UHGV virus genome: UHGV-1374678
DNA length: 64,000 bases
Strand: one strand, 5' to 3'
DNA from: a virus
A program made the translations under genes and the position numbers. Under the pieces are notes generated by a model. That model saw only the letters and a list, made by a program, of their open reading frames with translations, had not been told where the DNA came from and searched no databases. Positions 62,994 through 64,000 of this stretch are shown here, piece by piece; the first letter of the stretch is position 1, and every line of letters begins with the position of its first letter.

Positions 62994-63483
62994 ATAGTAA
63001 ACCTCCTGTATTTAAAGTATTACAGTATACCATAAAATAAATAGTATGTCAATTAAAATACTATACAAAAATAACAATATTTTTAACAACTTTTTAGGCA
63101 TTATTATTATATAAAAGTATTTGCAATTAACAATCTAATATGCTATCATTATACCTGTCAAGAGGACAAGGGCTTAAATAAAAGCCACGACCGATTGACA
63201 AGTAACCCGTCAACCCAGCACCATTTAAAAAGGGGGGATAAAATGAAAGACTGGGAGGCTATCCACCTCCGGAGACAGCTTAACGAGGCTATAGGCTTGC
63301 TAAGAGCTTATAAGTGCCTCCAAGCTCTTAGGGTCTTATTAGACCTTAAGTCATGGCTGGAAGATCGTTAGATCTTTCAACTATGAGTCGGGAGGGCGGT
63401 CGGCAGAGTGTGATCTCTGCTGACCGTTTGGATACACCTTATACAGTCAATCAAAAAAACAAAAACGATATTATAACAATTTG

Positions 63484-63512
63484 TTGTTGACATTCACAAC
63501 AAGTTATGATAA
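63484..63512 (+). promoter_or_regulatory. strong sigma70-like promoter (TTGACA, 17-nt spacer, TAATAT, with upstream TG)
   Basis: ttgacattcacaacaagttatgataatat. Confidence 0.55.
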
Positions 63513-63519
63513 TATCAAA

Positions 63520-64000
63520 GAAGAAATCCCTTTATTATATCTCAAAATAAACAGTTCTTGCGTGAACTAGGTAAGGTTAAAAGATTCCTTTAAAAAATCT
63601 TAAAAAACTTCATAACACCGGATTCTATCCGGAAGACGGTTATTACAACCGTTGCACTTGGAGTTTGCACATTGACAATTTCATAGGTTTTTAAATTTCC
63701 CTTTTCAGAAAAAAATTTAAAGTCTATGACTCAAAAGGTTATAGCCGGGCGGCAACGTCCGACGCTAGAAATAGTGGGGCTATGGTAAAAGTCCAATGCG
63801 AACCATGGTAAAAGTGGCAAGCAATTCGGATATTGGCATACGCAGCAAGTCTTTTTAGATACTGCTACAAATAATGCTAATAACGATCGGTGATAGGGTG
63901 ATACCAGTTAGTGCAGAAGTGAAACTCTTCCACAGCCTTAAACGCTCAACCTTTATACATAGTAAAAGGATTGAACAGACCTAAAGCAATGAATCGCACT
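63520..64000 (+). ncRNA. ORF-free GC-enriched structured RNA candidate (runs to the window edge)
   Basis: No ORF of 60 aa or more in the last kilobase; strong hairpins (CCGGATtctaTCCGG, ATAGCC..GGCTAT); AAAGTCC motif reminiscent of the RNase P P4 region. Confidence 0.3.

What the first reader, a model, noticed from the sequence alone, without database searches (positions are those of the whole stretch)
63130..64000. ORF-free, GC-enriched structured region downstream of a strong promoter; possible ncRNA or host boundary
The last 900 bp has no ORF of 60 aa or more, has higher GC than the rest, and forms strong hairpins. A near-consensus sigma70 promoter at 63484-63512 points into it. One segment (GGTAAAAGTCCAATGCGAACCATGG, flanked by an ATAGCC..GGCTAT helix) is reminiscent of the RNase P P4/P5 region. 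The composition shift could mark the end of the phage-derived DNA.
Basis: inference. Interest (0 to 1): 0.55.

Follow-up and report, generated by a model that had tools for sequence, protein, structure and literature searches.

The report
Structured early-gene leader RNA of a phage
The flagged end of the window is not RNase P RNA and not a phage/host junction: it is the early control region of a large gut phage, holding a 42-codon gene inside a tightly folded mRNA and then a long folded untranslated leader whose 232-base core matches no described RNA family.

Summary
There is no ORF of 60 aa or more, GC is 0.39 against 0.32 for the window, folding is strong, and a sigma70-like promoter sits at 63487-63515. 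Two of the interpretations fail. Rfam gives no RNase P or any other family here. An identical metagenome contig (L009) continues rightwards into phage genes, so this is not a host boundary.

Two rightward units follow a divergent Cro/C1-type HTH gene:
- Promoter P1 (63121-63149) drives a 5' hairpin and a conserved 42-codon ORF (63243-63371). The ORF lies inside a 310-nt multibranched RNA (z about -10 to -12, compensatory changes).
- Promoter P2, inside a palindrome, drives a leader of about 670 nt with no convincing ORF. It runs past the window end to an ATG at window-equivalent 64184.

The leader core (63720-63951) has 12 helices. It has 18 compensatory pairs, against 0-1 in slid controls, and two GNRA hairpins. 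It recurs in only two other lineages (L071, L034). The leader ends, outside the window, in a long hairpin and a covarying pseudoknot next to the ribosome-binding site. The first gene is followed by a hammerhead-like motif, or by twister ribozymes in relatives.

Most likely this is a cis-acting, probably processed, early mRNA leader. Its function is inferred, not shown.

The parts
62772..62993 (-). Divergently transcribed 73-aa Cro/C1-type HTH regulator gene (context; the left edge of the control region)
   Evidence: ORF. Pfam HTH_26 1.1e-13 and HTH_3 3.3e-11. PHROG transcriptional regulator/repressor families.
63024..63052 (-). Leftward sigma70-like promoter for the HTH gene (TTGACA-17-TATACT, TG, 11 of 12)
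   Evidence: Consensus match only.
63121..63149 (+). Rightward promoter P1 (TTGCAA-17-TATCAT with TG, 9 of 12)
   Evidence: The same layout recurs three times in L001 and twice in L024 and L033: -10 hexamer, about 8 nt, then the GTCAAGAGGACAA hairpin.
63152..63205 (+). 5' leader hairpin carrying the conserved motif GTCAAGAGGACAA (63157-63169) and an inner A-rich-loop hairpin
   Evidence: Predicted. A 61-nt block is conserved even in loci (L001, L004) whose downstream sequence is unrelated. The motif occurs once in the window and only in the early regions of related loci, always on the rightward strand.
63243..63371 (+). 42-codon gene (MKDWEAIHLRRQLNEAIGLLRAYKCLQALRVLLDLKSWLEDR) with SD GGGGGG at 63232-63237
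   Evidence: Sequence. The protein is identical in L003 and L007 despite nucleotide changes. L002 has 16 nt changes, about 11 of them synonymous, and 4 conservative replacements. One 42-aa cluster at 90% identity in the 5.8-billion protein set. Against: L006 has a stop at codon 4. No Pfam or PHROG family.
63151..63459 (+). Module A: multibranched RNA enclosing the whole 42-codon ORF. The start codon region pairs with 63444-63453, and part of the SD pairs with CCC at 63214-63216
   Evidence: z = -12.2. Consensus structure of 107 pairs, 4 compensatory and 5 wobble-compatible one-sided changes among 6 close relatives. The rightward strand is 16.6 kcal/mol more stable than its complement.
63396..63427 (+). 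13-bp G+C-rich hairpin closing module A. It looks like a terminator but is followed by only UUU
   Evidence: The terminator scan reports none in 62600-64000. Loop sequence varies (UGUG / CCACA) while the stem is kept.
63470..63515 (+). Palindrome (candidate operator) containing promoter P2 (TTGACA 63487-63492, TAATAT 63510-63515, TG). A leftward promoter-like site lies at 63499-63470 on the other strand
   Evidence: and the sequence. Hexamers are conserved in L002, L003 and L007. In five of the ten first loci, about 500 nt is inserted between window positions 63487 and 63519.
63519..64000 (+). Module B: untranslated structured leader of the early operon. It continues beyond the window to the ATG at window-equivalent 64184
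   Evidence: Extension read from identical contig L009. Full 665 nt: -178.5 kcal/mol, z = -6.1; complement z = -4.0. 98% identical across loci that differ by 4-12% in module A.
63720..63951 (+). Conserved 232-nt core domain: 12 helices around multiway junctions, with conserved unpaired stretches (CAAUGCGAAC, GGUAAAAG, AAGCAAUUC, UCGGUGAUAG, CUUAAA)
   Evidence: Alignment A6 with L071: 68 pairs, 98.5% of cells paired, 18 pairs changed on both sides. Slid controls give 0-1, and 0 of 500 shuffles reach the observed values. Model R1 finds a third lineage, L034, at 35.2 bits, E 3e-8. No Rfam match.
63746..63776 (+). Two adjacent hairpins capped by GNRA tetraloops (GCAA at 63752-63755, GAAA at 63768-63771)
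   Evidence: The loop class is kept while the sequence changes (GCAA, GUAA, GUGA), and the stems covary.
63954..64000 (+). Start of the conserved UAUACAUAGU...UAUAGUGUG.AUAAC hairpin module. Its 19-bp perfect arm 63966-63984 pairs with window-equivalent 64060-64078
   Evidence: The same module, with different apical stems and one compensatory change at its base (GUUAU/AUAAC to GUCAU/AUGAC in L061), occurs in L001, L004, L014, L024, L038, L039, L044, L061, L065 and L071.

Best explanation
The region is the rightward half of the early transcription control region of a large phage of gut Clostridia/Lachnospiraceae. It holds two tandem transcription units.

1. P1 makes a short, very tightly folded mRNA. 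It begins with a conserved 5' hairpin and encodes a 42-aa protein. The fold partly covers the ribosome-binding site and pairs the start codon region with the 3' end of the module.
2. P2 lies inside a palindrome that is a likely operator for the neighbouring HTH regulator. It makes the early-operon mRNA, which starts with an untranslated leader of about 670 nt.

The leader is built of modules: a 232-nt multi-helix core with GNRA tetraloops, a long conserved hairpin, an A-rich linker, and an H-type pseudoknot that abuts the polypurine ribosome-binding site of the first early gene.

Proposed mechanism (inferred): the leader acts in cis on its own mRNA and is cut off from it. The long perfect hairpin is the likely cleavage site. 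In relatives a tRNA-like element occupies the same position. Cleavage would leave an mRNA whose 5' end is the pseudoknot plus the polypurine site, which would set the stability and translation of the first gene. A self-cleaving ribozyme trims the 3' side of that gene.

Shown: the RNA structures, the coding signature of the 42-codon ORF, the modular layout, and the absence of any known RNA family. Inferred: that the promoters fire, that cleavage happens, and what the core domain does.
For: Phage context and rightward continuation.

Module A: folding z = -12.2. Covariation, plus G-U pairs that exist only on the rightward strand.

42-codon ORF: synonymous and conservative substitution pattern.

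Promoters:
- The P1-to-hairpin spacing recurs in several loci.
- P2 is conserved.

Leader:
- There is no convincing ORF before 64184. The only ORF in the leader is a 36-aa one (63874-63984), which has no SD and changes mostly non-synonymously in L071.
- No terminator lies between P2 and the window end, or anywhere on the rightward strand of L009 up to the gene.
- The full leader folds at z = -6.1.

Core domain: 18 compensatory pairs against 0-1 in slid controls. It is always found 200-420 nt downstream of a sigma70-like promoter and upstream of the first early gene in three lineages, even when that gene differs, as in L034.

Pseudoknot next to the SD: 12 distinct sequences, the loop-to-downstream helix 100% paired, 5 of 6 pairs compensatory. 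Analogous mini-pseudoknots occur in nearly all 59 distinct leaders.

Interchangeable modules at the position just 5' of the pseudoknot: the long hairpin, a tRNA-like element (ARAGORN calls an 86-nt tRNA-Glu in L025), or a third motif.

Ribozymes directly after the first gene: a hammerhead III-like motif in L009 and Twister-P5 above threshold in four relatives.
Against: - There are no expression or RNA-end data. Promoters, processing and stability effects are inferences.
- The core domain is known from only three lineages, and within the window's own lineage it is 98% identical. Most of its covariation therefore rests on one diverged sequence (L071) plus a weak third (L034).
- The function of the core is unexplained by the processing model. 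A simple stabiliser would not need 12 helices.
- The module A terminal hairpin lacks a U-tract, so it is unclear whether the P1 and P2 transcripts are separate.
- One relative (L006) has a premature stop in the 42-codon ORF.
- Few intrinsic terminators are predicted in the operon, so antitermination is not obviously needed.
Confidence: 0.6

Rival explanations
1. The folded modules, especially the 232-nt core, are released from the leader and act in trans as stable non-coding RNAs. They could be a decoy or inhibitor of a host defence or RNA-binding protein, or a self-assembling large RNA like ROOL/GOLLD.
For: - Leaders upstream of homologous first genes are a mosaic of unrelated structured modules. 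blastn and the CM find the window's core in only 3 lineages, and the L001-type leader has its own 37 covarying pairs. That pattern is typical of accessory or arms-race cargo at the start of early operons.
- The core has GNRA tetraloops, which often make tertiary or intermolecular contacts.
- Candidate cleavage modules lie between the core and the mRNA.
Against: - No terminator or mapped end defines a separate RNA.
- There is no match to ROOL, GOLLD or any other Rfam family.
- No target is known.
Confidence: 0.2
2. The core domain is a riboswitch-like sensor for a metabolite, ion, tRNA or protein. Its state is relayed through the downstream hairpin and pseudoknot to control translation of the first early gene.
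For: - Highly conserved unpaired nucleotides lie in multiway junctions flanked by covarying helices.
- The GUGUG segment of the downstream module can pair either with upstream CAUA or with downstream CACAC, which are mutually exclusive hairpins.
- A pseudoknot abuts the SD.
Against: - The core is about 230 nt from the SD, with a stable 19-bp hairpin between them.
- No terminator-type expression platform is present.
- The pseudoknot sits beside the SD rather than sequestering it.
- The downstream genes are unrelated to each other and of unknown function, so no ligand is suggested.
- No known riboswitch class matches.
Confidence: 0.12
3. The core, or the conserved UACAUAGU...UAUAGUGUG module, is a new self-cleaving ribozyme that processes the early transcript.
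For: The genomic neighbourhood is rich in self-cleaving ribozymes. These include a hammerhead-like motif and Twister-P5 right after the first gene, and an HDV-like hit in L025. This is the same association logic that yielded the RAGATH candidates. The module's position is interchangeable with a tRNA-like element.
Against: 232 nt is large for a self-cleaver. No cleavage site can be inferred. No similarity to any ribozyme family.
Confidence: 0.06
4. The signal is at the DNA level: a replication origin, packaging site, attachment site or phage/host junction, with the hairpins formed by DNA.
For: The region is intergenic, palindromic and compositionally distinct. A G/T-rich degenerate-repeat stretch lies 1.2 kb to the left.
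Against: - The structure is strand-specific. Many G-U pairs and GC-to-GU changes would be C-A mismatches on the other strand. The rightward strand is more stable.
- Helices covary while their sequences change.
- The identical contig continues into phage genes.
- No direct-repeat arrays are present.
- The only phage/host junction seen in relatives maps near window 59289.
Confidence: 0.02

Closest known systems
Cis-acting structured leaders of long operons that act on the transcribing polymerase: HK022 put RNAs and the Bacillales EAR element (comparison from my own knowledge of these systems)
   Same: Folded RNA placed just downstream of an early or operon promoter, ahead of a long multigene unit, and acting on its own transcript. 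EAR also contains a pseudoknot.
   Different: No sequence or CM similarity to any Rfam family, EAR included. The core here is 232 nt with 12 helices. Few terminators are predicted in the downstream operon. Antitermination was not tested.
Pseudoknots beside ribosome-binding sites, for example the T4 gene 32 leader pseudoknot (comparison from my own knowledge)
   Same: An H-type pseudoknot a few nucleotides 5' of the translation start region of an early phage gene, conserved by covariation.
   Different: Here it precedes unrelated first genes (196, 277, 228, 308 and about 56 aa) and can occur twice in one operon (L004). It is therefore not the autoregulatory site of one protein. The sequence families differ.
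Phage SP82 early-RNA RNase III site with a downstream polypurine 5' stabiliser in Bacillus subtilis (recalled from the literature, not retrieved here)
   Same: A long perfect hairpin followed by a polypurine, SD-like sequence at the start of an early mRNA in a Firmicutes phage. This is the basis of the processing and stability model.
   Different: No cleavage data exist here. The pseudoknot is an added element. There is no sequence relationship.
RAGATH candidates and ribozyme-flanked phage genes (Rfam RAGATH families; Twister-P5 RF02684; Hammerhead_3 RF00008)
   Same: Structured RNAs of unknown role sitting next to genes that are flanked by twister or hammerhead ribozymes.
   Different: The core matches none of the RAGATH, twister, hammerhead, pistol, hatchet or HDV models.
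Large phage-associated RNAs ROOL and GOLLD
   Same: Leader of about 600-670 nt, ORF-free and G+C-enriched in an A+T-rich Firmicutes phage. tRNA-like elements lie nearby in relatives.
   Different: No CM match at E up to 10. The leader is a mosaic of separable modules rather than one conserved 600-nt fold. It lies in an mRNA leader.
Type I toxin mRNAs (hok-like folding logic), considered for module A
   Same: A small ORF enclosed in a very stable fold with long-range 5'-3' pairing that covers the start codon, and a partly sequestered SD. A leftward promoter-like site lies downstream.
   Different: The 42-aa product is an amphipathic, charged helix without a membrane-spanning segment. No antisense RNA has been shown. 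A different variant at the same position (L004) does encode a 27-aa hydrophobic peptide.

Membership tests
   No RNase P hit at gathering score or at E up to 10, in the window end or in the extended sequence.
   The only hits at E up to 10 are chance-level: hsp17 (E 1.4), isrF (E 9.1) and a plant miRNA model that picks up the long hairpin. ARAGORN finds no tRNA or tmRNA in L009.
ROOL / GOLLD and other large phage-associated RNAs | Covariance-model match over the conserved fold | tested here: not met
   No hit.
Evolutionarily conserved structured RNA (generic) | Base pairs maintained by compensatory changes above controls that keep relatedness | tested here: met
   Core: 18 of 68 pairs changed on both sides, 98.5% paired. 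Slid controls give 0-1 pairs and 29-46% paired. Caveat: there are only 5 sequences and effectively 2-3 lineages.
H-type pseudoknot at a ribosome-binding site | Hairpin loop pairs with a downstream segment, and both helices are supported comparatively | tested here: met
   12 distinct sequences. Helix 2 is 100% paired with 5 of 6 pairs compensatory. Helix 1 is 82% paired on a MAFFT alignment that is out of register for 5 sequences. It lies at window-equivalent 64129-64169, outside the window.
Protein-coding gene (42-codon ORF) | Start codon with SD, open frame kept in relatives, and an excess of synonymous or conservative change | tested here: met
   SD GGGGGG lies 5 nt before the ATG. The protein is identical in L003 and L007 despite nucleotide changes. 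About 11 of 16 changes in L002 are synonymous. Exception: a stop at codon 4 in L006.
Intrinsic terminator (hairpin 63396-63427) | G+C-rich stem followed directly by a U-tract | tested here: not met
   The stem is present, but only UUU follows. The scan reports no terminator in 62600-64000.
Type I toxin-antitoxin (module A) | Small hydrophobic or membrane toxin, plus an antisense or overlapping antitoxin RNA | tested here: not met
   The peptide has no hydrophobic span (sequence). The antisense RNA is only a promoter-like match on the minus strand at 63499-63470, which is inconclusive.
Sigma70-type promoter (P2) | -35 and -10 hexamers at 16-18 nt spacing, and a mapped transcription start | tested here: inconclusive
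   Hexamers match 10 of 12 with an extended -10 TG and are conserved. The start site cannot be tested with these tools.
Hammerhead ribozyme type III (motif after the first gene, outside the window) | CUGAUGA and GAAA core, a GUC cleavage site and three stems; Rfam gathering score | tested here: inconclusive
   All core nucleotides and stems I and III are present, and stem II is only 2 bp. The score is 33.5 bits against a threshold of 48.5, E 7e-6 in a 191-nt search.
Processive antitermination RNA (EAR / put) | Makes RNA polymerase read through downstream terminators | not testable with these tools
   No Rfam hit of any kind, EAR included. Only weak terminator-like sites lie on the operon strand.

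The most novel reading that the evidence does not exclude
The 232-nt core (63720-63951) is a new functional RNA class carried as exchangeable cargo at the head of phage early operons. It could be a new self-cleaving ribozyme, a new ligand- or protein-sensing aptamer, or a trans-acting RNA that neutralises a host defence or RNA-binding factor. The unrelated structured modules at the same place in sister phages (the L001-type leader, the tRNA-like element, the GGUUAGGAGGUCUGAAAUAAUGCUACC module) would then be functional alternatives in an RNA-level arms race.
Probability: 0.15. Interest if true: 0.8.

Novelty: new variant of a known kind. Interest (0 to 1): 0.45.

Why it matters
Phage early regions are usually read as strings of small orphan proteins. 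In this phage group the first 1-2 kb after the early promoters is largely folded RNA, assembled from interchangeable modules and bracketed by ribozymes.

The work yields three concrete candidates for experiments, none of which matches an Rfam family:
- a 232-nt multi-helix core;
- a covarying pseudoknot placed against the ribosome-binding site, found in at least 12 sequence variants;
- a 5' hairpin motif that starts each early transcript.

If the modules are processing or stability devices, they describe how a large Firmicutes phage tunes its first gene. If they act in trans, they would add to the short list of phage RNAs that manipulate the host.

The work also removes two wrong leads, RNase P and a prophage boundary.

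Tried and rejected
Known-family and database searches that found nothing relevant:
- Rfam at gathering score on the whole window, at E up to 10 on 62900-64000, and on the extended L009 sequence. Nothing relevant; RNase P, tmRNA, riboswitch, T-box, group II, ROOL and GOLLD rejected.
- blastn (distant mode) against phage and plasmid records: no match.
- Pfam and PHROGs for the 42-aa and 196-aa proteins: no family. The 42-aa protein has only one cluster in the big protein search.
- Pfam on the ORF of the about 500-nt insertion found in L003-type loci, which I had guessed to be ribbon-helix-helix: no hit, guess dropped.

Collection scans for more copies:
- Pseudoknot pattern: 1 viral locus, 0 genome and 2 metagenome loci.
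- Core pattern scans of IMG/VR. One scan was wasted on a spacer miscount. The corrected scans found only the L071 contig plus a chance hit inside a coding region, L109, which I rejected.
- The search for related loci in species-representative genomes: a single Blautia MAG.

Looking for the core in other leaders:
- blastn, nhmmer and the CM (default filters, and filters off on six loci) found none beyond three lineages.
- A 15-locus filters-off run failed.

Other checks:
- tRNA detection on the T-arm-like modules: only L025 is called.
- The 36-aa ORF at 63874-63984 as a gene: rejected. It has no SD, and changes in L071 are mostly radical and non-synonymous (alignment).
- Antitermination rationale: only weak terminator-like sites on the operon strand.
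- Tandem repeats or iterons in 61200-64000: nothing meaningful.
- Folding scan of the window's other ORF-poor stretch (1400-6500): unremarkable.
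Full report
**1. Observation check**

- Between 62994 and the window end there is no ORF of 60 aa or more on either strand.
- GC of 63130-64000 is 0.393 against 0.320 for the window, in the top 3.6% of same-size windows. The excess is confined to 63151-63459 (0.46) and 63720-63951 (0.444). The linkers are about 0.31.
- 63150-63520 folds at -146.3 kcal/mol against -85.2 +/- 5.0 for dinucleotide shuffles, z = -12.2. 63520-64000 alone gives z = -2.2, because the window cuts a long hairpin in half.
Such matches are frequent here: 13 found against 7.4 expected.

**2. Known RNA families and the host boundary**

- cmscan against all 4227 Rfam families finds three things elsewhere in the window (RAGATH-18 and two tRNAs) and nothing in the region. 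This holds at gathering scores and at E up to 10.
- blastn against phage and plasmid records finds nothing.
- An exact-protein look-up with the neighbouring 73-aa HTH protein returned ten metagenome contigs.
- One of them, L009, is identical to the last 11,229 nt of the window. It therefore serves as the rightward extension.
- The ORF-free stretch ends at an ATG at window-equivalent 64184, with SD GGAAGGAG, which starts a 196-aa gene.
- That gene is followed by HTH_26 genes, a RelE/HTH pair, a DUF6551 protein, LPD11 and Lar-like genes. These are phage early genes, not host genes.
- Rfam on the extended sequence is again empty.
- The RNase P and host-boundary ideas are therefore rejected.

**3. 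Layout of the control region**

The 73-aa gene at 62772-62993 (-) is a Cro/C1-type HTH. It has its own leftward promoter-like site at 63052-63024. Two units run rightwards.

*Unit A*
- It starts at P1 (63121-63149).
- About 8 nt after the -10 hexamer comes a hairpin (63152-63205) carrying GTCAAGAGGACAA.
- The same promoter / 8-nt / motif arrangement recurs three times in L001 and twice in L024 and L033. The motif occurs nowhere else in the window or in the 109 loci.
- The 61-nt hairpin block is kept even in loci whose downstream sequence is unrelated.
- This is the best available support that P1 is real and that early transcripts begin with this hairpin.

*The 42-codon ORF*
- Next come a strong SD (GGGGGG, 63232-63237) and a 42-codon ORF (63243-63371).
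- In L003 and L007 the nucleotide changes inside the ORF are all synonymous.
- In L002, 16 nucleotides differ. About 11 are synonymous, including AGA to CGA and CTG to TTA. The four replacements are conservative: N to G, R to K, V to I and D to N.
- L006 carries a stop at codon 4, the one exception.
- The protein has no Pfam or PHROG family, and only one cluster in the 5.8-billion protein set.

*The module A fold*
- The whole ORF lies inside a multibranched fold of 107 predicted pairs.
- The start codon region pairs with 63444-63453, beyond the last hairpin. Part of the SD pairs with CCC at 63214-63216.
- Four pairs show compensatory changes and five show wobble-compatible one-sided changes.
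- Changes in the 3' untranslated arm compensate synonymous changes in the ORF.
- The rightward strand is 16.6 kcal/mol more stable than its complement.
- So this stretch is both a gene and a constrained RNA structure.
- Its closing hairpin (63396-63427) lacks a U-tract, and no terminator is predicted.

*Unit B*
- It starts at P2, which sits in the palindrome 63470-63515. A promoter-like site on the opposite strand also lies there.
- In five of the ten first loci, about 500 nt is inserted exactly between 63487 and 63519. The insert carries its own promoters and a roughly 60-codon ORF. This is a recombination-prone junction between modules.

**4. The leader (module B, 63519 to window-equivalent 64183)**

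- The full 665 nt fold at -178.5 kcal/mol, z = -6.1. The complement gives z = -4.0.
- Among the close relatives the leader is 98% identical, while module A differs by up to 12%. This argues for constraint but leaves little covariation.
- nhmmer found one diverged homologue, L071, in an IMG/VR contig of 204 kb.
- For the 232-nt core (63720-63951), RNAalifold on the window, L002, L003, L007 and L071 gives 68 pairs in 12 helices.
- Counting on that structure:

| Measure | Observed | Slid by 1-3 columns |
|---|---|---|
| Cells paired | 98.5% | 29-46% |
| Pairs changed on both sides | 18 | 0-1 |

- None of 500 column shuffles reaches the observed values.
- One pair (63793 with 63897) shows C-G, A-U, U-G and U-A among the five sequences. 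It therefore also varies within the close clade.
- Two adjacent hairpins are capped by GNRA tetraloops whose class is kept while the sequence changes (GCAA, GUAA, GUGA; GAAA).
- A covariance model of this alignment (R1) found a third member at 35.2 bits (E 3e-8, full length). It lies in L034, an uncultured Blautia MAG, and keeps the unpaired motifs CAAUGCGA, GGUAAUAG, AGCAAUU, AUAGGUGAUAG and CUUAAA.
- The 36-aa ORF at 63874-63984 has no SD and changes mostly non-synonymously in L071, so I do not regard it as a gene.

**5. What lies between the core and the gene (outside the window, read from L009)**

- First comes a conserved module, UAUACAUAGU - stem - UAUAGUGUG.AUAAC. In the window's phage its stem is a perfect 19-bp duplex (63966-63984 with 64060-64078).
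- The module occurs with different apical stems in at least ten other loci. It shows one compensatory change at its base, in L061.
- After an A-rich linker comes an H-type pseudoknot. GGCGA / UCGUC encloses a loop whose CUGUAC pairs with GUACAG, immediately 5' of the polypurine SD.
- Across 12 distinct sequences the loop-to-downstream helix is 100% paired, and 5 of 6 pairs are changed on both sides.
- Nearly all 59 distinct leaders of homologous first genes end in one of three versions of such a mini-pseudoknot.
- It precedes unrelated proteins of 196, 277, 228, 308 and about 56 aa, and occurs twice in L004.
- Directly after the 196-aa gene, L009 has a hammerhead type III-like motif: complete catalytic core, 33.5 bits, below Rfam's 48.5.
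- At the same place four relatives have Twister-P5 ribozymes above threshold.

**6. Diversity of the leaders**

- The 196-aa protein has a large family: 275 hits at E <= 0.001 (the 120 listed are 62-66% identical apart from the query's own cluster). They lie on contigs of roughly 100-200 kb and on long bacterial contigs, including Clostridium sp. AF34-13.
- All have 1-2 kb of gene-poor sequence upstream, but the window's modules A and B are absent from almost all of them.
- They carry other modules instead.
  - The L001-type leader shows 37 compensatory pairs among four sequences.
  - Some have a tRNA-like element at the position of the long hairpin. ARAGORN calls an 86-nt tRNA-Glu in L025. 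L011 and L043 show T-arm-like GGUUCRAnUCC sequences that are not called as tRNAs.
  - Most carry a third motif, GGUUAGGAGGUCUGAAAUAAUGCUACC...GUCCGUUCCAAGUCGG.
- In the three lineages that have the core, it always lies 200-420 nt after a sigma70-like promoter and before the first early gene. This holds even where that gene is different, as with the 96-aa acidic protein in L034.

**7. Interpretation**

*Shown*
- Two strand-specific, evolutionarily maintained RNA structures.
- A small gene inside the first of them.
- A modular leader without coding capacity.
- A covarying pseudoknot at the ribosome-binding site.
- Ribozymes after the first gene.

*Inferred*
- The leader acts in cis and is cleaved from the mRNA at the long hairpin, or at its tRNA-like substitute in relatives.
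- Cleavage leaves a 5' end protected by the pseudoknot and the polypurine site.
- This resembles what I recall of the RNase III site and polypurine stabiliser of Bacillus phage SP82. That resemblance is a lead from memory, not a test.

*Unexplained and alternatives*
- The processing model does not explain why a 12-helix core is needed.
- The alternatives therefore stay open: a released trans-acting RNA, a sensor, or a new ribozyme.
- A DNA-level role is unlikely, because the pairs are strand-specific.

**8. Novelty and score**

- No Rfam family covers the core, the pseudoknot or the 5' hairpin. The 42-aa protein is an orphan.
- The kind of element, a structured leader of a phage early operon, is known. 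I therefore rate it a new variant of a known kind.
- The narrow distribution of the core (three lineages) and the lack of any functional data keep the interest moderate.

Noticed in passing
window 47136-49032 (-): A complete IS607-type element inside the phage. It has a serine recombinase TnpA (48349-49032; MerR + Resolvase), a TnpB (47256-48416; OrfB_IS605 + Cas12f1-like TNB) and, directly downstream, RAGATH-18 RNA (47136-47208, 75.5 bits). A 2024 paper describes RAGATH-18-derived RNAs as guide RNAs of IS607 TnpB nucleases (PMC11061315).
   Followed up: partly
L009 8126-8177 (-) = window-equivalent 64817-64868 (+), outside the window: A hammerhead type III-like motif with a complete catalytic core and a 2-bp stem II lies immediately after the first early gene (33.5 bits, below Rfam's 48.5). 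Twister-P5 ribozymes above threshold occupy the same position in L035, L037, L066 and L078.
   Followed up: partly
window-equivalent 64129-64183 (L009), and L001, L004, L011, L025, L039, L061, L066, L071, L072: A covarying H-type pseudoknot sits directly 5' of the polypurine SD of the first early gene. Three sequence versions occur across about 59 distinct leaders, and none matches an Rfam family.
   Followed up: yes
L001 8584-9245 (-), L024, L033, L014: A different leader of about 640 nt, upstream of a 277-aa first gene, shows 37 compensatory pairs among four sequences. It shares only its first roughly 60 nt and last roughly 100 nt with the window's leader.
   Followed up: partly
L004 (rc) intergenic positions about 455-540; L001 about 561-675: At the position of the window's 42-codon ORF, other variants encode different micro-ORFs with strong SDs. 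L004 has a 27-aa hydrophobic peptide (MVFSAIVNIVLAFILIVDIINDLRNRK), which resembles a type I toxin. L001, L024 and L033 have a 37-aa aromatic-rich peptide.
   Followed up: no
L025 3157-3242 (-) and 1766-1833 (-): ARAGORN calls an 86-nt tRNA-Glu(UUC)-like element inside the early leader, just 5' of the pseudoknot. An HDV-like (F. prausnitzii type) ribozyme hit at 36.6 bits, below the threshold of 44, lies between downstream genes.
   Followed up: no
window about 59289 (compare L006): In L006, similarity to the window stops at window 59289, just past the DUF3825 gene. Bacterial housekeeping genes follow (GGGtGRT, CinA, pgsA-like, MiaB/RimO-like, rpoZ, gmk). This may be a prophage/host junction or a chimeric assembly. 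A 512-nt ORF-free stretch (58393-58904) and a GC-skew switch lie nearby in the window.
   Followed up: partly
window 61300-62470: About 1.1 kb with only spurious ORFs. It is strongly G-over-C skewed (up to +0.64) and G/T-rich, with degenerate GATTTTTGG-like repeats. A similar stretch occurs in L011 1740-1980. It could be an origin-like or regulatory element.
   Followed up: no
window 2263-3837 and 4153-5739: Two further stretches of about 1.6 kb each without any ORF of 60 aa or more. Their folding z-scores are unremarkable on both strands.
   Followed up: partly
window 51306-54116 (-): A 936-aa protein whose homologues carry a precomputed weak PF05183 (RdRP) hit, as YonO-type phage RNA polymerases would. 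L033 has a YomU_Tube gene. Together these hint at an SPbeta-like phage. My own Pfam scan gave no hit; only PHROG 8308, of unknown function, matched.
   Followed up: partly
L003 (rc) intergenic positions 782-1272 (also L002, L005, L007, L008, L010): An insertion of about 500 nt lies exactly between window positions 63487 and 63519. It has its own promoter-like sites and an ORF of about 60 codons that seems to start at ATT. No Pfam family.
   Followed up: partly
window 40470-40542 (-) and 50903-50976 (-): Two phage tRNA genes (58.7 and 59.4 bits). Reading the anticodon loops by eye suggests Trp(CCA) and Pro(UGG).
   Followed up: no
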